From a virus (Duplodnaviria; Caudoviricetes), in the IMG/VR virus record IMGVR_UViG_3300037262_000044, positions 1 to 62,724 of that record: DNA of 62,724 nucleotides. One strand, written 5' to 3'. How positions within the stretch are numbered: the stretch's first letter is position 1; each line of letters opens with the position of its first letter. The translations under genes and the position numbers were made by a program. The notes beneath the pieces are model-generated. The model was given only the letters and a program-made list of their open reading frames with translations, ran no database searches and had not been told where the DNA came from. Positions 1,981-62,724 of this stretch are shown here, one piece after another.

Positions 1981-2177
1981 AAGTCATCGCCACCTACATC
2001 GTAGAAACCTGGGAAGGCAAAACGCTTCTCTATGAGACAGAAGGCGGCAAATGGTATATCCAGAAAATATCCGAAGACGATCACGGACGTTTTTTGGAGG
2101 TCAGGCTACGGGAAATTTCCGCCGATTCGGCATCTTATTATCTTACCCGAGACGAACCAAAAATCAACAAACCGTGA
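1977..2177 (+). CDS. Hypothetical protein
   Basis: ATGA-coupled start MKVIATYIVETW. Confidence 0.55.
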   Translation: MKVIATYIVETWEGKTLLYETEGGKWYIQKISEDDHGRFLEVRLREISADSASYYLTRDEPKINKP

Positions 2178-2269
2178 AAAATTACCAGCATCTCATCATC
2201 GTGATCGTCCGCTCCCTGGTGATCGGGGCGGCGTTGGCTTATGCGCTTTATATCTTAACTCAAAACTGA
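2174..2269 (+). CDS. Small membrane peptide
   Basis: GTGA-coupled; one hydrophobic helix LIIVIVRSLVIGAALAYALYIL. Confidence 0.45.
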   Translation: MKNYQHLIIVIVRSLVIGAALAYALYILTQN

Positions 2270-2274
2270 AAAAT

Positions 2275-3057
2275 ATGAAAGATGCACTCGGCGATCGCAT
2301 GAAGGCGAACTACGAAAGCAGGACACGCCAGTTTTTGATGCGGCGCAATTACACCGTGATCAGGATTGACGGAAAGGCTTTTCATACTTATACAAAGCAT
2401 TTGCAAAGCCCTTTTGATGACAATCTCATGCATGACATGGATTCAACGGCTGCCATCCTCTGTAAAGAGATTGGCGGGGCAAAGTTCGCATTCGTCCAAA
2501 GCGATGAGATTTCACTGCTCATCACCGACTTTGACGACCTTCAAACCCAGGCCTGGTTCGACTACAACGTGCAAAAAATGGTCAGTGTGAGCGCCAGCGT
2601 TGCAACCGCCGCCTTCAATCAATTCAGACAGCGCCGGGAGACCAATGATGTGTGGGGAATGAAACTGGCGCATTTCGATTCCAGGGTCTTCCAACTCCCG
2701 AACAAAAGCGAAGTGGAGAACTATTTCATCTGGCGCCAGCAGGACACGACCCGAAACAGCATCCTATCCGTTGCGCAAAGCCTATACAGCCACAAGCAAT
2801 TGGAGGGCAAAAACACCAGCGAATTACAGGAGATGATCTTTCAAAAGGGCATCAACTGGAATGATTACAAACCTTACTATAAACGCGGGCGCATGATCAT
2901 GAAAGAAGAATACGAAATTGAGCCCAATCCCTCAATTCCGGAGGCCATTATACAGTTGGCGCCCCCTACACTTCGGACCCGCTGGGTAATGAAGGAAGTC
3001 CCCATATTCACGCAGGAGCGGGAATTTATCAGCAACCTTATACCAGACAATCTATAA
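2275..3057 (+). CDS. thg1: Thg1-like protein (tRNA-His guanylyltransferase family, 3'-5' polymerase)
   Basis: LGDRMK.YE, RIDGKAFH, QSDEISL, FDSRVF and WRQQD motifs; likely start ATG 2275. Confidence 0.92.
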   Translation: MKDALGDRMKANYESRTRQFLMRRNYTVIRIDGKAFHTYTKHLQSPFDDNLMHDMDSTAAILCKEIGGAKFAFVQSDEISLLITDFDDLQTQAWFDYNVQKMVSVSASVATAAFNQFRQRRETNDVWGMKLAHFDSRVFQLPNKSEVENYFIWRQQDTTRNSILSVAQSLYSHKQLEGKNTSELQEMIFQKGINWNDYKPYYKRGRMIMKEEYEIEPNPSIPEAIIQLAPPTLRTRWVMKEVPIFTQEREFISNLIPDNL

Positions 3058-4954: not shown

Positions 4955-5331
4955 AAGGATTCAATTTGACGTTCTGCAATAAGGGCTGATTCTTGTTGAC
5001 GGCGCCTGCTGGAAATATATTCTTCGAATATTTCCTTCAACCGCTTGTCGAGATCGAAAGTGGACTTATCCCAAAATTCAAGTTCACCGTGGCCTTCGGA
5101 ATAGCTGAACCAACCTATATGCGACGGGTTTATATGAATGAACTGACGCGCCGGCTCTTGCGGTTGTATGAAATCTTCCCGCAACTGGAAGTCAATCTTA
5201 TATGGGTATATGCTCTGCCAAGAATGCCACCATTTTCGTCTTATCTGCAAGCGAGAATGAATTTCTATGCCATCCTGCCAAACAATATGTCTGACCTGTT
5301 CGGAATGCTGAATTACGCGCTTTTTACTCAT
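4951..5331 (-). CDS. Hypothetical protein
   Basis: ORF coupled within the minus-strand operon. Confidence 0.5.
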   Translation of the reverse strand: MSKKRVIQHSEQVRHIVWQDGIEIHSRLQIRRKWWHSWQSIYPYKIDFQLREDFIQPQEPARQFIHINPSHIGWFSYSEGHGELEFWDKSTFDLDKRLKEIFEEYISSRRRQQESALIAERQIESL

Positions 5332-5473
5332 ACTTTTACCAATTTTTAAAAAGCTTGAATCTAATCCCATTTGCGCGATGACCCATTTTTCAACGCCCAA
5401 AAAAACACACATAGAATTCCTAAAATAACAACCATCGCTATCGCATTTGGAATGTTGTCAATTATTATTTTTT

Positions 5474-5710
5474 TCATTTCACCAACTTTTCAAATTCTTC
5501 AATCGTTTCGACCCGGAACATCGCGCACCAAAAGAATACCCACCAAAAAGCACCGTCATACCACAGCGAGATTTCATCCTTGAAGTACGCACTCCCGTCC
5601 TTCTCGTAGCCTTCCCGCTTCAAATAGGCGCCGTTCATCGGCCTGGGAAGTGGGTCGGGATCCTCGTGGAGATATTCCACCAATCCGTGCTTGGTCATCA
5701 CCCTTTTCAT
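5474..5710 (-). CDS. Hypothetical protein
   Basis: ATGA-coupled ORF in the operon. Confidence 0.55.
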   Translation of the reverse strand: MKRVMTKHGLVEYLHEDPDPLPRPMNGAYLKREGYEKDGSAYFKDEISLWYDGAFWWVFFWCAMFRVETIEEFEKLVK

Positions 5711-58161: not shown

Positions 58162-58513
58162 AGACAAGCAGTTCAGTTCCACGCGGCAACCGACTCCCCA
58201 GGCGAAAAGCAACGGGCTACTGAAAAAGAAAACCGGCGTGGAACTGGCCCGGGCAATATTGCAACTCTCGTTTGAAGGCGCGAAAGATTCGCCACTCAAA
58301 AAAGCCGCCGCAGATTACTTCAAAATCTCCGAGCAAGAAATCACGGTCGAAATGATGTTGATGTTCCGCCAGGCCGAGAAGGCGGTTCAAAAAGGCGATA
58401 CACGGGCCTTTGAAGCGGTCATGGATCGGGCGTTTGGCAAGCCAAAGCAGGAAACTAAGATAAATGGCACTCTTGATCTTAATCTTTCCGATCTGTCAAT
58501 CACTTTCAAATAA
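58100..58513 (+). CDS. terS: Terminase small subunit
   Basis: VG.GKPPK..QF, KA.KGD.RA...MDR.FGKPKQ; upstream of TerL. Confidence 0.7.
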   Translation: MQDTGKPREKRKDVGPGKPPKDKQFSSTRQPTPQAKSNGLLKKKTGVELARAILQLSFEGAKDSPLKKAAADYFKISEQEITVEMMLMFRQAEKAVQKGDTRAFEAVMDRAFGKPKQETKINGTLDLNLSDLSITFK

Positions 58514-59154
58514 TGAAGTTAAAGGACATTAAGGGACAACGTTTCGGTAAGCTTTCTGTTATCGAATATGCCGGCAAGAATCGAACTTCCGCACAATGGC
58601 TTTGTGAATGCGATTGCGGAAACATTTGCATTGTAGTTGGAAATAAATTAAGATCCGGCCATACCAAAAGTTGTTCATGTGGACAAAAAGAAGCGGCCAG
58701 TATCGGCAATTTCATTCATGGCATGAAAGATACATCAGAATATGGAAGTTGGCAAGCCATGAAAGAAAGGTGTTATAACCCGAATAGCGCTAGTTACCAA
58801 TATTATGGAGGCAAGGGCATCATCGTTTGCCCTGAATGGAAAGATGATTTTTTAGCGTTTTTTGCTGACATGGGGCTAAAACCAGATCCATCCTATACAA
58901 TAGAGCGAACGTATAATTCATTGAATTATGGGCCAGAGAACTGTTATTGGGCCTCTAAGATGGCGCAAGGGGCTAATACTTCGAGAAATAGAAGGATTTC
59001 ATTTAATGGCGAAGTGAAAATACTTGCAGAATGGATGAGGTATTTCCAAGTTTCCCCTCAATATTTTTACATATTAGAACGAAAAAACGGAGTTGAAGGC
59101 GCATTTTCAATCCTTTATGCCAAAAGTAATCGTAGAATCTCTACAGCCATATAA
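58513..59154 (+). CDS. HNH homing endonuclease
   Basis: GQRFGKL.V, WLCECDCG, SCSCG, W.AMK.RC.NP, YGGKGI.VC.EW, Y.PENC.WA. Confidence 0.9.
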   Translation: MKLKDIKGQRFGKLSVIEYAGKNRTSAQWLCECDCGNICIVVGNKLRSGHTKSCSCGQKEAASIGNFIHGMKDTSEYGSWQAMKERCYNPNSASYQYYGGKGIIVCPEWKDDFLAFFADMGLKPDPSYTIERTYNSLNYGPENCYWASKMAQGANTSRNRRISFNGEVKILAEWMRYFQVSPQYFYILERKNGVEGAFSILYAKSNRRISTAI

Positions 59155-60505
59155 GCCTCTTTATGATCTGCCGATCGATACCAATCTAATTATTCTCATC
59201 GGCGGCCGTGGGTCTGGCAAGACTTATGAAGCCTCAAAATGGATAACCTTTCAAGCTTGTATCAAGAAAAAGCGCTGCGTAATTCTGCGGGACGAAAAAG
59301 CCCTAATCCGGGAAAGTATCCTAAATGAAGTCATGTTGAGATATGAGACTGCCAATGAAAGCGGTGTCTTAGACCGGTTTTATCAAAAATTAGAAACTGG
59401 CATAAAAGACATGCAATCATCTGAAATGTTGGTATTTACAAAAGGTTTTCGTGCCAGTAGAACAGACAAAAAGGCACATATGAAATCTATATCCAACATC
59501 GATTATTGCATTATCGAAGAAATGGAGGATATTGTTGATCAAGACGCGTTTAACTCCCTTGTTGATGGAATCAGGAATGAAGGGAGTATTGTCATGCTTA
59601 TTCTGAATACTCCACACATTTCACATTTTGTTATTACTCGGTATTTTACCCTTGAAAAGGTCGAAGACGGTTATTACGACGTTATCCCCAAACAAATCCC
59701 CGGCCTGGTCGTCATCAAAACCAATTTTGAGGATAATCCATATTTGCCACCGACGATCGTCGAACGGTATAAGGCCTATGGGGATCCCGCCAGCCATCTA
59801 TTCAACAAGCATTACTACCTGACGGCCATCAAGGGCCTGGCCAGCACCGGCCGCAAAGGACAAATATTCAGCGGGTGGAAGAGCATTACCAATCAGCAGT
59901 TCAACGAGATTGATGCCCGGTCCATCTTCGGGCAGGACTTCGGAACTACTTCACCCGCTGCCCTGGTGGAGGCAAAGATCATCAACAACCGGATTTACAT
60001 CCGCCAACACAGTTACGTGGGCATGACCGAAAAACAGATCGGAATCCTCTATTGCCGGCTGGGAATCAAAGAAGAGGTGATCATCGCGGACTCCGCCGAA
60101 CCCATGGCGATACGCCGCCTGCGGTCTGGCTGGTCACTCAGTGAGCTATCGGACGAAGAGCGGGCGGATTATGCCGCATGGCAGGGAGAGGCGCTTAAAC
60201 CGGCTGTAATGACCCCACACGCTGTGCCTGTTGAGATAAAACCATGGAAATATGCCCGGCTTTTGACCGGGTTTCACATCTTCCCGGCATTCAAAGGCCC
60301 CGGAACGGTGATTGCGGGGATCAAAAAGGTAATGGATTATGAGGTGTTCGTGACCGAAGATTCGACGGATATTTGGTTTGAATACGCGAATTATGTATGG
60401 GCTGTAGACCGGCATGGCTTAACCCTGGATGAGCCGGAAGATGCCCATAATCATTGCGCTGACTGCATCAGGTACCTAATCTCTGGTAAAGGAAGATACT
60501 ATTAA
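59117..60505 (+). CDS. terL: Terminase large subunit (PBSX-type)
   Basis: GGRGSGKT Walker A, IIEE Walker B, ILN, DNPYL, GQDFG, ADSAEP, D.HNHCAD.IRY. Confidence 0.93.
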   Translation: MPKVIVESLQPYKPLYDLPIDTNLIILIGGRGSGKTYEASKWITFQACIKKKRCVILRDEKALIRESILNEVMLRYETANESGVLDRFYQKLETGIKDMQSSEMLVFTKGFRASRTDKKAHMKSISNIDYCIIEEMEDIVDQDAFNSLVDGIRNEGSIVMLILNTPHISHFVITRYFTLEKVEDGYYDVIPKQIPGLVVIKTNFEDNPYLPPTIVERYKAYGDPASHLFNKHYYLTAIKGLASTGRKGQIFSGWKSITNQQFNEIDARSIFGQDFGTTSPAALVEAKIINNRIYIRQHSYVGMTEKQIGILYCRLGIKEEVIIADSAEPMAIRRLRSGWSLSELSDEERADYAAWQGEALKPAVMTPHAVPVEIKPWKYARLLTGFHIFPAFKGPGTVIAGIKKVMDYEVFVTEDSTDIWFEYANYVWAVDRHGLTLDEPEDAHNHCADCIRYLISGKGRYY

Positions 60506-60545
60506 ATAATGCTCAAAGATACATAATTACTTTGTAAATTGAAGC

Positions 60546-61211
60546 ATGAAAAATAATGAAAAAATTCCTGCCGGATGCATTATCAAATATGGCCAAGATG
60601 AATACCCTTTCCAGGAATTCAATGGCAAAAGATATCATCTTTACACTGGCGAACGATATTATTCCAGGGGCACAAAAAGGCTTCATGTAACTATATATAA
60701 ATTCTATTACGGGGCCGTCCCGAAAGGATATCATGTTCACCATAAAGACGAAAACCCACTCAACAATCATCCGCTAAATTTGGAAATGATGCTTGGAAGG
60801 GATCACCTGGCATATCACATGAAGGATAGAGATAAGGAAGAAATGCGTAAAACAATGAACTATGCCAGAACTTTTGCAGACAAATGGCATGGAACTGAAG
60901 AGGGGCTGGCATGGCATCGGGCGCACGCAAAAAACTCCTTGAAGAAAAAAGAGGTTCATAAAATATGCGCTAACTGCGGAAAGCCATTTAAGACTATTGC
61001 CGTCAACGATAAGGGGCATGCCAAATTTTGTTCCGACAATTGTAAAAATACCTCTCGTTTCAGAAGCGGAGTGGATAATATTGAAACGACTTGTCCAATA
61101 TGCGGAAAGAAAAAAATGCGAAACAAATATTCAAAATCAGTTACTTGCGGGAAATCATGCGGCCGGAAACTATTAAAACAGCGTAAAGCTAATTCAGTCT
61201 CAACTCCTTAA
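60546..61211 (+). CDS. HNH homing endonuclease with C-terminal zinc ribbons
   Basis: RLH...G.VPKGYHVHHKD.N.LNN...NL; CANCGK, FCSDNC, CPICGK. Confidence 0.88.
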   Translation: MKNNEKIPAGCIIKYGQDEYPFQEFNGKRYHLYTGERYYSRGTKRLHVTIYKFYYGAVPKGYHVHHKDENPLNNHPLNLEMMLGRDHLAYHMKDRDKEEMRKTMNYARTFADKWHGTEEGLAWHRAHAKNSLKKKEVHKICANCGKPFKTIAVNDKGHAKFCSDNCKNTSRFRSGVDNIETTCPICGKKKMRNKYSKSVTCGKSCGRKLLKQRKANSVSTP

Positions 61212-61497
61212 ACCCGATTTCCTCCTTTTCCCACAAAAGCATGTCCGCTTCCGCCGGCCGGAAGCGCTTCACATCAAACCACCAGGTTCCATCATCGTAG
61301 AGCCTCCCGCAGCCGCAAACAACCTGGAACCGCACCCGATCCAGGGTTATCCCCACATCCACGAAGATCGCCCCGCAGCGGCAGCGTTTAAGCCCCTGGA
61401 CGCGGTATTCGGTCCCCCTGGTGAGCGGGCATCGGAGGATGTCCGTTTTGAGGGTCCGATTGTTGACGCAAAGAATGAGCTGGGAGAGGCTGATCAT
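61189..61497 (-). CDS. Hypothetical Cys-rich protein
   Basis: CRCG and CGCG motifs; ATG at 61497. Confidence 0.55.
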   Translation of the reverse strand: MISLSQLILCVNNRTLKTDILRCPLTRGTEYRVQGLKRCRCGAIFVDVGITLDRVRFQVVCGCGRLYDDGTWWFDVKRFRPAEADMLLWEKEEIGFKELRLN

Positions 61498-61528
61498 GGC
61501 CCGAAAATAAAGAAAAGCGCAAGAATTA

Positions 61529-61560
61529 TTTGATAATTGAATATTTACCATTTACTTTTA
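61529..61560 (+). promoter_or_regulatory. Bacteroidota-type promoter (variant -7 box)
   Basis: TTTG (61529-61532), 20 nt spacer, TACTTTTA (61553-61560). Confidence 0.55.
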
Positions 61561-61585
61561 CGATTACATTAAAACTCAAATCTCA

Positions 61586-62209
61586 ATGGACAAAATGACC
61601 ATTCACCGCGCACTCAGCGAGTTAAAGCTGATCGACGCGAAGATCGAAAAGGCAACTGCCCAGGTAAATCCGTCCGGTATCTATCAGAAGGGTCGGCATA
61701 TCAACGGCTCCATCCCAGAGGAAGATTTCAAGACCTTGGCGCAATCGACCTACGATTCCTGCATCGGGCTGATGGGCCGCAAAACCGCTATCAAATCGGC
61801 TATCGTTCAATCAAATGGGAAAACGACCGTTAAGATCGGCGACAAGGTAATGACCGTTGCCGACGCCATTACCGCCAAAGCGATCATTAAGTTCAAAAAG
61901 GCGTTCATAGCCAATTTGACCAACCGGCACCGTGCCCAGGTAGCAGCGTTGAACACCAACAACTCGGTAGTGATGCAGAATGCCCAAAAACTTCTGGAAG
62001 CCGCTATGGGGAAGGATAACACGAAGGTGACGAAGGAGGACGTCGAGGCAATCCGCAAGCCTTTTATCGACAACAACGAATTCCACTTGTTCGACCCGCT
62101 GAAGATCGAAGACAAAATCAAGGTCCTGGAAAAAGAGGTCGGCGACTTCGAGGCGGATGTCGATGCGGTCCTGTCCGAGTCCAACGCCGTGACATTCATT
62201 GAATTCTAA
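61586..62209 (+). CDS. Coiled-coil hairpin protein of unknown function (loosely DIP1984-like)
   Basis: MTIHRALSELKLIDAKI...MTVADAI..K...DPL...DVDAVLSESNA.T.IEF. Confidence 0.8.
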   Translation: MDKMTIHRALSELKLIDAKIEKATAQVNPSGIYQKGRHINGSIPEEDFKTLAQSTYDSCIGLMGRKTAIKSAIVQSNGKTTVKIGDKVMTVADAITAKAIIKFKKAFIANLTNRHRAQVAALNTNNSVVMQNAQKLLEAAMGKDNTKVTKEDVEAIRKPFIDNNEFHLFDPLKIEDKIKVLEKEVGDFEADVDAVLSESNAVTFIEF

Positions 62210-62212
62210 CAA

Positions 62213-62546
62213 TATTGGCCGGTCTTACGAAAATGGTAAATTCTATTCCCGCTGATCCTTCTGGGTTAAAAAGGATCATCCAATTGTTAACTGGACAATC
62301 TTTGTATTCTAGGTTCGAATCCTGGCATCGGTCTTAAAAACCGACGTGGCGGAACGGTAAACGCAAAAGACAAACAACCTAAAAGCTCACGGCTCAAAGG
62401 TTAAAGGTCAAACCTCACCGCTCAAAGTTCTTTCCGATCAAAGATGAAACCTTAAAACGCAAAGCTCTTTCAAACCCTGTATAAATTTTCATGGGGACTA
62501 ATAGATCACCCCTGCCGTTTGATCCAGGCTGTAGGATCGGCCAATA
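62213..62546 (+). ncRNA. Candidate structured ncRNA with a permuted tRNA-like domain and heptamer repeats
   Basis: 62213-62228 pairs with 62531-62546 (16 bp, two G-U); internal hairpins; T-arm and D-arm motifs; no ORF of 60 aa or more. Confidence 0.75.
62375..62467 (+). repeat. Degenerate 7-nt tandem repeat (consensus about AAAGCTC)
   Basis: About 12 units read directly, with one 9-nt interruption. Confidence 0.8.
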
Positions 62547-62565
62547 CTTTTTAAAAATATTAACT

Positions 62566-62724
62566 ATGTGGGGAGAAAAATTTCATAGCAGTCAAAAGGT
62601 GTACGTGATCTATCACAACGTATATATCGCTGGCATCCATGTATTTCAACCGCCTGCACCCGGAGTCATTCTATGGCGGCATCCTGTTCGCAAAAAGCAC
62701 CATTTCGCCACTGATGAAGAAGGT
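62566..62724 (+). CDS. 5' part of the junction-spanning hypothetical gene
   Basis: In frame with 2..355. Confidence 0.65.
   Translation, partial: MWGEKFHSSQKVYVIYHNVYIAGIHVFQPPAPGVILWRHPVRKKHHFATDEEG
62598..62724. repeat. 127-bp terminal direct repeat, right copy
   Basis: Identical to 1-127. Confidence 0.95.

What the first reader, a model, noticed from the sequence alone, without database searches (positions are those of the whole stretch)
62375..62467. 7-nt periodic, A-rich tract inside the RNA
Seen: CAACCTA AAAGCTC ACGGCTC AAAGGTT AAAGGTC AAACCTC ACCGCTC AAAGTTC [TTTCCGATC] AAAGATG AAACCTT AAAACGC AAAGCTC. The register is strictly kept while the sequence drifts, unlike a recent slippage microsatellite, and a period of 7 cannot come from codons. 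Inference: one protein subunit binds per heptamer, as in TRAP or nucleocapsid-like polymers, so the repeat count could set oligomer size.
Basis: partly seen in the sequence, partly recalled or inferred. Interest (0 to 1): 0.8.

Follow-up and report, generated by a model that had tools for sequence, protein, structure and literature searches.

The report
Heptad-repeat loop in new phage RNA
The 7-base periodic stretch is real and is the most conserved part of a previously unannotated, expressed non-coding RNA that many tailed phages, including phage T5, carry next to one uncharacterised gene; it most likely serves as a fixed-length landing strip for a protein.

Summary
Observation confirmed. Window 62382-62467 holds 7 + 4 heptads (AAAGnUn) split by a 9-nt spacer. 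Lag-7 identity is 0.56 against 0.27 in shuffles (0 of 5000 reach it).

The tract lies inside a ~332-nt RNA (62214-62545). Its core (closing helix, two long-range pseudoknots, an H-type pseudoknot) is backed by covariation: 33 of 40 pairs show double changes. No tract column covaries with anything.

The RNA follows a 207-aa gene (phrog_1491, T5.085 family). Of 56 protein-anchored loci, 50 have lag-7 >=0.50 downstream. By eye a similar RNA follows the gene in 11 distant isolates (T5-like, Bcp1, phage G and others). No Rfam family matches and no record seen annotates it.

Unit count is fixed: block 1 is 49 nt in 51 of 53, the spacer 9 nt in 46 of 53, block 2 28 nt in 53 of 53. Metatranscriptome contigs from 4 studies cover only the RNA.

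Tract-like heptads also abut the protein's start codon (27 of 50 against 6 of 111 control ORF starts). Best model, about 0.5: a fixed-count single-stranded binding array, probably for the co-encoded protein, with a 5'UTR mimic for feedback. Binding is untested. One complete phage has the RNA without the protein.

The parts
61571..61584 (+). Two tract-like heptads (AAAACUC AAAUCUC) in the 5' leader, ending one base before the start codon of the upstream gene
   Evidence: Read. Part of the second lag-7 region of the window. AAAGnUn units lie within 30 nt of this gene's start in 27 of 50 relatives against 6 of 111 control ORF starts.
61586..62209 (+). Gene for a 207-aa protein, phrog_1491 / T5.085 family, function unknown ('tail fiber protein' label unsupported)
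   Evidence: PHROGs E 1.3e-56. AF2 pLDDT 91.7, long-helix bundle. Only structural match is the unknown-function chain 3kdq. 738 phage records hold homologues.
62214..62229 (+). P1, 5' strand of the closing helix
   Evidence: Pairs with 62530-62545. 14 of 16 pairs show changes on both sides.
62230..62236 (+). P2, 5' strand (AAAAnnn), pairs with 62515-62521; crosses P3 (pseudoknot)
   Evidence: MI/APC top pairs 35-433, 36-432, 37-431. 3 of 7 pairs show double changes.
62242..62247 (+). PKa, 5' strand (UCUAUU), pairs with the P3a loop at 62500-62505
   Evidence: 6 of 6 pairs show changes on both sides, 96% paired.
62248..62278 (+). H-type pseudoknot: S1 62248-50 / 62263-65; S2 62253-60 / 62271-78
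   Evidence: S1: 3 of 3 pairs show double changes. S2: at least 9 compensatory variants read by eye in the A5 alignment; not counted formally.
62299..62375 (+). Optional, circularly permuted tRNA-like insert. Anticodon-stem 3' strand 62299-303, T-arm 62309-25, acceptor hairpin 62326-46, D-arm 62349-64, anticodon-stem 5' strand 62366-70
   Evidence: Read. T-loop GGUUCGAAUCC is the only Rfam echo. ARAGORN calls no tRNA. Absent from about a third of relatives.
62382..62430 (+). Heptad block 1: seven AAAGnUn units
   Evidence: 49 nt in 51 of 53 aligned RNAs. Logo. Unpaired in RNAalifold consensus. No Watson-Crick covariation.
62431..62439 (+). Conserved 9-nt spacer (UUUCCGAUC here; UUACGCUUU / UUUACGAUU in relatives)
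   Evidence: 9 nt in 46 of 53.
62440..62467 (+). Heptad block 2: four units, the last invariant AAAG
   Evidence: 28 nt in 53 of 53. Unit 11 is AAAG in 55 of 55.
62468..62479 (+). Conserved UUUCAAAC plus P3 5' strand (62476-79), pairs with 62525-62528
   Evidence: P3: 3 of 4 pairs show double changes, 99% paired; strongest MI pairs of the alignment.
62493..62545 (+). 3' domain: P3a hairpin 62493-96 / 62509-12 with the PKa 3' strand in its loop, P2 3' strand, P3 3' strand, GGCUG, P1 3' strand
62546..62552 (+). U-run after the closing helix (terminator-like end)
   Evidence: T-runs follow P1 in the window and relatives. Not tested otherwise.

Best explanation
The tract is the single-stranded working part of a structured phage non-coding RNA. 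A pseudoknotted core, made from the RNA's 5' and 3' ends, closes an 86-nt loop. The loop presents eleven AAAGnU units at a strict 7-nt pitch: seven units, a 9-nt spacer, then four. The loop acts as a fixed-count, sequence-specific binding array for a protein. The most likely partner is the self-associating helical protein encoded directly upstream (T5.085 / phrog_1491 family). Two or three copies of the same heptad lie against that gene's start codon. They would act as a low-copy mimic of the tract, so that protein not taken up by the RNA represses its own translation.

Shown here: the periodicity, its conservation, the fixed count, the covarying core, the absence of pairing signal in the tract, RNA-level presence, linkage to the gene, and the leader heptads.

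Inferred: that a protein binds, which protein, the stoichiometry, and the feedback loop. The biological role of the particle is open. Its neighbours (tRNA arrays, a Thg1-like gene, tRNA-like inserts) point towards tRNA biology.
For: 1. Periodicity. Lag-7 is 0.56 against 0.27 +/- 0.05 in shuffles, 0 of 5000.
2. Conservation without ascertainment on the RNA. Loci were fetched by the protein alone. 50 of 56 have best lag-7 >=0.50 within 480 nt downstream, against 0 of 56 (max 0.43) inside the gene itself.
3. Logo over 55 RNAs x 11 units: A .95, A .95, A .87, G .70, n, U .72, n. Fixed letters alternate with free ones, as for direct read-out of single strands.
4. Fixed geometry. The tract is 86 nt in 44 of 53; block 1 is 49 nt in 51 of 53; the spacer is 9 nt in 46 of 53; block 2 is 28 nt in 53 of 53.
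5. The tract is flanked by helices with strong covariation. Cells paired are 91.3% against 69.0% in shuffles (0 of 500), 33 of 40 pairs show double changes, and slid controls give 33-47%. RNAalifold leaves the tract unpaired. None of the 45 top MI/APC pairs is a Watson-Crick pair touching the tract.
6. RNA-level presence. Contigs of 4 metatranscriptome runs from 4 studies cover 62236-62544 only, with nothing on 60500-62224 or 62600-62724. One is a 100%-identical 244-nt insert at depth 59 with adapters on both sides.
7. Partner clues. The gene-RNA pair recurs in 11 of 11 distant isolates examined. The protein is predicted to self-associate: ipSAE 0.54, best control 0.00; this mark was reached by 20 of 30 proteins solved as pairs of one chain and 1 of 23 solved as single chains; runs agree in at least 84% of contacts; partner pLDDT at least 81.
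8. Leader heptads. AAAGnUn lies within 30 nt of the gene's start in 27 of 50 against 6 of 111 control ORF starts. In-register doublets occur in 14 of 50 against 1 of 111, Fisher p 2e-7. Cronobacter phage CsaP_009 shares a 15-nt word between leader and tract.
Against: - No binding was tested or modelled.
- The predicted protein interface is symmetric: the same residues appear on both copies. That fits dimers, not a head-to-tail polymer with one subunit per heptad.
- G001, a complete 64.6-kb phage, has the tract and 3' domain but no homologue of the protein at E <=1, while three positive controls score about 1e-90. Its RNA 5' part looks rearranged. L176 also lacks the gene upstream, but that record is only 44% complete.
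- Thermodynamic folding does not mark the tract as unusually open. Unpaired probability is 0.45 against 0.43 for the rest and 0.47 after shuffling, over 28 RNAs.
- The leader-tract exact-word test stands out in only 1 of 12 phages.
- The leader enrichment is not corrected for relatedness, and the control ORFs include uncalled or spurious frames.
- The protein fold gives no RNA-binding precedent.
- In distant lineages the units are less regular: best lag-7 >=0.50 in 7 of 11 isolates.
Confidence: 0.5

Rival explanations
1. The tract is a sponge or decoy for a host factor rather than for the phage protein. Candidates are a single-strand RNA-binding protein of the translation or decay machinery, or a tRNA-directed defence nuclease. 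The co-encoded protein would then help or act separately.
For: The RNA occurs without the protein in one complete phage. The module sits beside tRNA arrays in Bcp1, Bennett, phiCDIF1296T and Jenst. The window phage encodes a Thg1-like tRNA enzyme. tRNA-like inserts occur in several lineages. The RNA appears in many metatranscriptomes, as expected for a titrating RNA.
Against: Hosts span Bacteroidota, Proteobacteria and Bacillota, so the target would have to be near-universal. The unit differs by lineage: AAAG in most, UUAAG in Vibrio phage Bennett and phage G. Heptads on the start codon are specific to this one gene, 27 of 50 against 6 of 111. That fits a dedicated partner better than a general factor. 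No candidate host factor with a 7-nt pitch was identified here.
Confidence: 0.2
2. The tract is RNA architecture. The periodic adenosines would make tertiary or intermolecular RNA-RNA contacts, so the RNA folds or multimerises on its own, as reported for other large phage-associated RNAs.
For: The core is highly knotted. A/U-rich units can form many weak pairs, and predicted openness is no higher than for shuffled letters. RNA-only multimers of ornate bacterial and phage RNAs exist (abstract of bioRxiv 10.1101/2024.12.08.627333, seen in the listing).
Against: No covariation involves any tract column. The only plausible local helix (unit 7 AAAG + CUU with unit 11 AAG + CUUU) is not kept in Bcp1, KIL4 or T5-like RNAs. 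The U-rich partner positions 5 and 7 are not conserved. This model does not explain the leader heptads.
Confidence: 0.12
3. The tract is read as a message or template: a tmRNA-like tag frame next to the tRNA-like domain, or a template for a polymerase.
For: The topology (T-arm, acceptor, D-arm, then an A-rich open stretch closed by a long helix) matches permuted two-piece tmRNA genes. Five relatives keep N-CCA plus an intervening hairpin after the acceptor 3' strand: L042, L043, L063, L076, L081. The window's tract has one open frame.
Against: 49 of 59 tracts carry stops in all three frames. ARAGORN finds no tmRNA. Rfam tmRNA matches only the 11-nt T-loop at E 9. The tRNA-like domain is absent from about a third of the RNAs while the tract is always kept. 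The window's acceptor stem is closed by a loop and lacks G3:U70. No reverse transcriptase was looked for.
Confidence: 0.05
4. The periodicity works at the DNA level (packaging, replication or promoter iterons) or is a decayed slippage satellite.
For: It lies about 2 kb from the large terminase gene in an intergenic gap.
Against: A 7-bp pitch does not match the DNA helical repeat. The tract is enclosed by RNA helices with compensatory changes. It is found as RNA while its flanks are not. In T5 and Bcp1 it sits far from packaging genes. Each unit position keeps its own identity across relatives, and lengths are fixed, unlike a satellite.
Confidence: 0.03

Closest known systems
TRAP binding sites in the Bacillus trp leader (recalled, not from a call)
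   Same: A run of 11 short purine-rich motifs at fixed pitch in single-stranded RNA, read by a multimeric protein. The count matches the number of subunits.
   Different: The motif is (G/U)AG with 2-3-nt spacers (pitch 5-6), not AAAGnU at pitch 7. The array here is split 7 + 4 by a 9-nt spacer and lies in a loop of a folded RNA. There is no TRAP gene in the phage (PF02081).
HutP antiterminator sites (recalled)
   Same: Triplets repeated every 7 nt in single-stranded RNA, read by a ring-shaped oligomer.
   Different: Those sites are two sets of three UAG triplets in an mRNA leader. Here there are eleven AAAG units in a stand-alone RNA. HutP was not searched for.
T4 gene 32 translational operator (recalled)
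   Same: A pseudoknot plus an A/U-rich unstructured stretch with repeated (U)UAAA. It is bound cooperatively by a protein whose site size is about 7 nt, giving autogenous translational control. The leader heptads here suggest the same logic.
   Different: That is a 5' leader only, with no separate RNA. No gp32 homologue is present in this phage (PF08804). The protein here has a different fold.
CsrB / RsmZ-type sponge RNAs (recalled)
   Same: A non-coding RNA carrying many copies of a motif that also overlaps start sites of target mRNAs; it titrates the binding protein.
   Different: Those carry GGA motifs in hairpin loops at irregular spacing and variable number. Here pitch and count are strict and there are no hairpins.
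YrlA bacterial Y RNAs (PMC4201824, passages read)
   Same: A tRNA-like module in the order T-arm, closed acceptor stem, D-arm, joined to the rest through the anticodon-stem position. Some members are cut by RNase P and receive CCA. They also occur in phages. A CGAA-containing motif lies near the 5' end.
   Different: YrlA is about 100-130 nt, lies within 4 kb of an Ro60/TROVE gene and has no heptad tract. No TROVE gene is present here and there is no RF02553 match. The tRNA-like module is optional in this family.
Permuted (two-piece) tmRNA genes (recalled)
   Same: The acceptor 3' half lies upstream of the 5' half. An open A-rich region sits between the tRNA-like domain and a long closing helix.
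   Different: There is no conserved tag frame, no detection by ARAGORN or Rfam, and no alanine identity pair in the window.
ROOL / GOLLD large phage-associated RNAs (abstract seen)
   Same: Large structured RNAs of unknown function, often in phages and near tRNA genes.
   Different: No Rfam match to either. This RNA is smaller (about 250-340 nt) and has a co-conserved protein gene and a periodic single-stranded tract.

Membership tests
Any Rfam 15 family | Covariance-model score at or above the gathering threshold | tested here: not met
   0 matches in the whole window. At E <=10 only an 11-nt tmRNA T-loop echo. Nothing over the RNA in the KIL4 and Bcp1 loci at E <=1.
tRNA / tmRNA | ARAGORN call; cloverleaf with free acceptor ends; for tmRNA a tag frame ending in a stop | tested here: not met
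   ARAGORN: 0 genes. The arms are in permuted order and the acceptor is closed by a 7-nt loop. 49 of 59 tracts have stops in all frames.
YrlA / Y RNA | Ro60 (TROVE) gene within about 4 kb | tested here: not met
   PF05731: no match in the complete phage at E <=1, with controls positive.
YrlA / Y RNA | T-arm, closed acceptor stem, D-arm in this order | tested here: met
   Window 62309-62364. The order is as described in PMC4201824. The module is missing in about a third of family members.
YrlA / Y RNA | GNCGAAN0-1G motif near the 5' end | tested here: inconclusive
   The family has an invariant CGAAAA after P1. The leading G of the YrlA motif is not kept, and here the A-run pairs with a U-run (P2).
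TRAP-type RNA target | (G/U)AG triplets at 5-6-nt pitch and a TRAP (TrpBP) protein | tested here: not met
   The pitch is 7 and the motif AAAGnU. PF02081 is absent. The defining features are recalled, not from a call.
Slippage microsatellite / minisatellite | Near-identical tandem units, with copy number varying between relatives | tested here: not met
   TRF sees 2.7 copies only. Unit count and length are fixed across 53 RNAs. Each unit position has its own consensus.
Protein-coding sequence | An open frame kept among relatives, with period 3 | tested here: not met
   Period 7. Stops in all three frames in 49 of 59.
phrog_1491 / T5.085 protein family (the neighbour) | Full-length profile match | tested here: met
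   E 1.3e-56 over residues 1-207. 489 homologues. 738 phage records.
Tail fibre protein (database label of the neighbour) | Structural likeness to known fibres, or position among tail genes | tested here: inconclusive
   No fibre among the structural matches; the best match is the unknown-function chain 3kdq. In T5 the gene lies among early genes. No virion proteomics were seen.

The most novel reading that the evidence does not exclude
This is a new, ancient class of phage ribonucleoprotein. The RNA is shared by T5-like, Bastille-like, rV5-like, jumbo and Bacteroidota phages. Its heptad loop of eleven or twelve registers measures out a fixed number of copies of the T5.085-family protein (for instance six dimers) into a closed assembly. 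Output would be set by a leader that mimics the loop. The particle would work on or alongside the phage's tRNA supply, with the exchangeable permuted tRNA-like insert as its handle. Possible roles are protecting, repairing or decoying tRNAs during host counter-attack.
Probability: 0.25. Interest if true: 0.9.

Novelty: categorically new. Interest (0 to 1): 0.82.

Why it matters
If the reading holds, a conserved RNA-protein module has gone unannotated in hundreds of sequenced phages. These include the model phage T5: 440 T5-like records hold the RNA at 80% identity or more (438 of them at 90% or more), and in the 40 rows listed the only features named under the match are protein and promoter labels.

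It would add a new way of counting protein copies on RNA, through a strict 7-nt pitch and a fixed 7 + 9 nt + 4 layout. It would also be a natural example of a circularly permuted tRNA-like domain grafted into a larger RNA.

Because T5 and E. coli K-12 are standard laboratory tools, the function is directly testable. The link with tRNA arrays, a Thg1-like enzyme and RNA ligase neighbours makes it relevant to how phages defend their translation supply.

The novelty claim has limits:
- It rests on Rfam 15 and eight literature searches that found nothing.
- Supplementary catalogues of candidate phage RNAs, such as that of PMC10690425, could not be opened and may list it.

Tried and rejected
- tRNA/tmRNA and Rfam scans: nothing.
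- DNA search of the phage collection with the window's 1.2 kb: no match.
- Pattern scans of viral contigs were mostly chance hits; 34 stretches, 3 distinct true loci; 86 listed and 80 read, of which 9 have lag-7 >=0.5, plus L177, which has the protein.
- Sequence search of solved structures with the protein profile: only a chance-level hit at E 0.23.
- Fold searches (PDB Foldseek, BFVD, VIA-wide) and the ESM Atlas gave only uncharacterised relatives or generic helical bundles.
- A helix between unit 7 + CUU and unit 11 + CUUU, predicted on a subset, was rejected. It is invariant in Bacteroidota phages and is not kept in Bcp1, KIL4 or T5-like RNAs.
- ViennaRNA accessibility of the tract: no difference from the rest or from shuffles, so it is uninformative.
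- Longest common word between leader and RNA: informative in only 1 of 12 phages.
- A full-length covariance model was not built. The RNA exceeds the practical size limit, so the likeness of the 11 distant isolates' RNAs rests on motif order read by eye and on lag-7 (>=0.50 in 7 of 11).
- Metatranscriptome contigs cannot give true ends or levels. Uncovered flanks are only a hint.
- Gene absences in the window phage: TROVE, gp32 and TRAP genes are not present.
- Four divergent RNAs (L071, L103, L108, L115) were left out of the logo. The accessibility test used the window plus every second RNA, 28 of 55.
Full report
WHAT THE WINDOW IS. The window is a complete viral record of 62,724 bases. Its last 127 bases repeat the first 127. 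The same sequence minus the repeat sits in a Chitinophagaceae metagenome bin (L045). Relatives lie in Chitinophagales, Saprospiraceae and a Tenacibaculum isolate genome. This is therefore a tailed phage of Bacteroidota.

Around the finding lie:
- a large terminase at 59093-60505 and two HNH endonucleases;
- a 207-aa gene at 61586-62209, matching phrog_1491 ('tail fiber protein', E 1.3e-56);
- a 281-nt gap.

Further on are a Thg1-like tRNA-His guanylyltransferase (2032-3054, E 1.4e-86), the portal, the protease and the capsid genes.

THE OBSERVATION. The quoted letters are there.
- Lag-7 identity over 62375-62467 is 0.558.
- Dinucleotide shuffles give 0.269 +/- 0.050. None of 5000 reaches the observed value, and none of 2000 reaches it at any lag from 2 to 20.
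- It is the best lag-7 stretch of the genome.
- Tandem Repeats Finder sees only 2.7 copies, so the units are old and diverged.

IT IS PART OF A CONSERVED RNA. Loci were collected with the upstream protein only, so the RNA did not bias the sample. They comprised 6 viral loci, 6 genome loci and 71 metagenome loci.
- Of 56 distinct loci with enough flank, 50 have a 90-nt stretch with lag-7 >=0.50 within 480 nt after the stop codon.
- The control, 480 nt of the gene itself, gives 0 of 56 (maximum 0.43).
- The six below 0.50 are L004, L064, L065, L066, L071 and L103.

An alignment of 53 RNAs (A5) folds into a closing helix P1, a helix P3, a hairpin P3a and stem S1 of an H-type pseudoknot. 24 of the 29 predicted pairs show compensatory changes. 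Mutual information adds two long-range helices:
- P2, an A-run plus three bases pairing with three bases plus a U-run;
- PKa, the 5' joining region pairing with the P3a loop.

Counting all 40 pairs gives 91.3% paired against 69.0% in shuffles (0 of 500). 33 pairs show changes on both sides, and slid controls give 33-47%. Stem S2 of the pseudoknot shows at least nine compensatory variants by eye. I did not count it formally because the aligner shifts it.

In the window the RNA runs from 62214 to 62545 and is followed by a U-run. No Rfam family matches and ARAGORN finds nothing.

ANATOMY OF THE TRACT. Across 55 RNAs the pooled unit is A .95, A .95, A .87, G .70, n, U .72, n. Four divergent RNAs were dropped from this logo. 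Units keep individual identities:
- unit 1 is AAAAGUU;
- unit 6 usually lacks the G;
- unit 8 is AAAGAUU;
- unit 11 is AAAG in 55 of 55.

Lengths are nearly invariant:
- block 1 is 49 nt in 51 of 53;
- the spacer is 9 nt in 46 of 53;
- block 2 is 28 nt in 53 of 53;
- the whole tract is 86 nt in 44 of 53.

RNAalifold leaves the tract unpaired. None of the 45 strongest covarying pairs is a Watson-Crick pair involving it. 49 of 59 tracts have stops in all three frames.

A weak local helix suggested on a subset is not kept in distant relatives. Single-sequence thermodynamics is uninformative: unpaired probability is 0.45 for the tract, 0.43 for the rest and 0.47 for shuffled letters. The evidence for single-strandedness is therefore comparative, not energetic.

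EXPRESSION. Twenty metatranscriptome runs from 19 studies hold part of 62205-62560. Contigs of four runs from four studies were laid on 60500-62724.
- They cover 62236-62544 only. Nothing lies on the terminase-side genes or beyond 62600.
- One contig is 100% identical, at depth 59. It is a 244-nt insert (62236-62479) with sequencing adapter on both sides. It runs from the last base of P2's 5' strand to the last base of P3's 5' strand.
- Contigs cannot prove ends or levels, and DNA carry-over cannot be excluded. Even so, four independent libraries that hold the RNA and not its neighbours point to a stable, abundant RNA.

AN OPTIONAL tRNA-LIKE INSERT. Between the pseudoknot and the tract, about two thirds of the RNAs carry a tRNA-like domain in circularly permuted order: anticodon-stem 3' strand, variable loop, T-arm, acceptor stem, D-arm, anticodon-stem 5' strand. 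In the window this is 62299-62375.
- In the window the acceptor stem is closed by a loop.
- In L042, L043, L063, L076 and L081 the 3' strand is followed by N-CCA and a small hairpin.
- L043, L098 and L004 keep a whole anticodon arm.
- L074 and L086 carry the insert in normal order.
- A third of the RNAs have only small hairpins there.

The topology matches YrlA Y RNAs (passages of PMC4201824). However, the phage has no Ro60/TROVE gene and the YrlA model does not match.

THE FAMILY IS MUCH WIDER THAN BACTEROIDOTA PHAGES. The protein has 489 relatives in the large protein collection. tblastn matches it in 738 phage records at 28-39% identity. These include T5-like phages, Pseudomonas KIL/phiPsa phages, Bastille-like Bacillus phages, Vibrio Thalassavirus, rV5-like phages, Bacillus phage G, jumbo Erwinia and Ralstonia phages, and a C. 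difficile phage.

In 11 of 11 isolates inspected, the gene is followed by 300-640 nt with no same-strand gene. By eye these gaps show the same order of motifs: closing helix, CGAA, pseudoknot with GGUUA, heptads, AAAYCC, helix, GCUG.
- Best lag-7 is >=0.50 in 7 of the 11.
- Bcp1 keeps CAAAG mostly at 14-nt spacing.
- Vibrio phage Bennett and phage G use UUAAG units.
- This likeness was not tested with a covariance model.

In T5 the RNA lies between T5.085 and T5.084. 440 T5-like records hold it at 80% identity or more (438 of them at 90% or more). In the 40 rows listed, the only features named under the match are protein and promoter labels.

tRNA genes lie directly upstream of the gene in Bcp1 (about 20), Bennett, phiCDIF1296T and Jenst. 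Erwinia phage Special G also has the permuted tRNA-like insert.

THE NEIGHBOURING PROTEIN.
- AlphaFold gives a confident long-helix bundle with a small sheet (pLDDT 91.7).
- The only structural match that stands out is an unknown-function protein, 3kdq (Foldseek E 3e-3; VIA Z 10.0, rmsd 7.5 over 150 residues). The other matches are generic helical bundles, uncharacterised phage proteins or unnamed clusters.
- The 'tail fiber' label has no support that I could find. In T5 the gene is among early genes.
- Four copies folded together score ipSAE 0.54, with a best control of 0.00. This mark was reached by 20 of 30 proteins solved as pairs of one chain and 1 of 23 solved as single chains. Runs agree in at least 84% of contacts, and partner pLDDT is at least 81. 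The job used my own alignment and four copies, unlike the calibration.
- The contact uses the same residues on both copies, so it looks like a symmetric dimer. This supports self-association; it does not show it.

HEPTADS ON THE GENE'S OWN START. The second lag-7 region of the window is the leader of this gene. Two units, AAAACUC and AAAUCUC, end one base before the AUG. In many relatives the leader reads ...UUUAAAGUUUAAAGAUU-AUG.
- At least one AAAGnUn unit lies within 30 nt of the start in 27 of 50 distinct leaders, against 6 of 111 other ORF starts in the same loci.
- In-register doublets occur in 14 of 50 against 1 of 111 (Fisher p 2e-7).
- This is not corrected for relatedness, and the control ORFs are mechanical calls.
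- T5, KIL4, SSE121, Special G and CsaP_009 leaders also look heptad-like by eye.
- An exact-word test stands out only for CsaP_009, with a 15-nt word shared with its tract.

LINKAGE FROM THE RNA SIDE. A pattern for unit 11 and its 3' flank found 80 readable loci in viral contigs. Nine have a periodic tract, and L177 also has the protein.
- Where enough flank exists, the gene is upstream in L147, L149, L177, L183 and L200, with part of it in L210.
- It is missing in L165 and L176.
- L165's record is a complete 64.6-kb phage with no homologue at E <=1, while three positive controls score about 1e-90.
- Its RNA has an unusual 5' part with tandem tRNA-like units, so it may be a rearranged copy.

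HOW IT MOST LIKELY WORKS. The core ties both ends of the 86-nt tract together. The tract is therefore a closed loop presenting eleven sequence-defined registers, or twelve counting the spacer, at a strict pitch. Four features fit direct protein read-out of single-stranded RNA with a set stoichiometry:
- fixed letters alternate with free ones;
- there is no pairing signal;
- lengths are fixed;
- each position has its own identity.

The co-inherited, self-associating protein is the obvious candidate. Copies of the motif on its start codon suggest feedback of the kind known for ribosomal proteins, T4 gp32 and CsrA (these comparisons are recalled, not from calls). I put this at about 0.5.

Rivals:
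- a host-factor sponge or decoy, 0.2;
- RNA-only architecture, 0.12;
- a message or template, 0.05;
- a DNA-level site or satellite, 0.03.

What the particle does is unknown. The recurring tRNA context is the best lead.

NOVELTY. I found no Rfam family and no paper describing this RNA or T5.085. From them I read passages of PMC10690425 and PMC4201824 and the listed abstracts. Supplementary catalogues were closed and could list it.

The mechanism has analogues: TRAP, HutP, the gp32 operator and CsrB. The RNA itself, its 7 + 9 nt + 4 layout, its knotted core and its exchangeable permuted tRNA-like insert have no known counterpart.

Noticed in passing
window 2032-3054 (+): The phage encodes a Thg1-like tRNA-His guanylyltransferase (phrog_4717, E 1.4e-86), about 2 kb downstream of the RNA across the genome junction.
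   Followed up: partly
window 62299-62375; L042, L043, L063, L076, L081; L074, L086; L130: A circularly permuted tRNA-like domain is grafted into the RNA through its anticodon stem. Five relatives keep N-CCA plus an intervening hairpin, which looks like a segment cut from a tandem tRNA pair. Two relatives carry the insert in normal order. The jumbo Erwinia phage Special G has a permuted one too.
   Followed up: partly
window 62491-62724 continuing to 355: The mechanical ORF starting at 62491 overlaps the RNA's 3' domain (62493-62545). In the 99%-identical relative L003 a different gene starts after the RNA. The true start of the downstream gene is probably later.
   Followed up: no
window 58513-59154 and 60546-61211: Two HNH endonuclease genes flank the large terminase gene. 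The first overlaps its start by about 60 nt.
   Followed up: no
window 61189-61551 (-): A 120-aa minus-strand ORF between the HNH gene and the 207-aa gene has no PHROG or Pfam match. It is conserved at the DNA level in L003 but is of unknown reality.
   Followed up: no
L165 (record G001), minus strand about 5150-5650: A complete 64.6-kb phage carries the tract and 3' domain. They are preceded by two tandem permuted tRNA-like units and repeated GCGA-A/GGGUUAC segments. No homologue of the protein is present and no P1 5' strand was seen.
   Followed up: partly
L125 (phage T5, NC_005859 43140-43510, minus strand): The model phage T5 holds the RNA between T5.085 and T5.084. The record marks only a promoter there. 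T5.081 nearby is labelled tRNA amidotransferase.
   Followed up: partly
L123 255-2454 (Bacillus phage Bcp1): About 20 tRNA genes run directly into the T5.085-family gene. An annotated 'hypothetical protein' (2172-2486) overlaps several of these tRNAs and is probably not a gene.
   Followed up: no
window 62236-62479: One metatranscriptome contig is an exact 244-nt insert with adapters at both ends. It spans from the end of P2's 5' strand to the end of P3's 5' strand. It could be a processed or protected core fragment, or a library artefact.
   Followed up: no
relatives L042, L073, L077, L105, L118 just after the RNA: The gene after the RNA in many relatives starts MAKDRESITID... and ends with an ...RSFSGMIEY... 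motif. It looks like a ribbon-helix-helix regulator; this was not searched.
   Followed up: no
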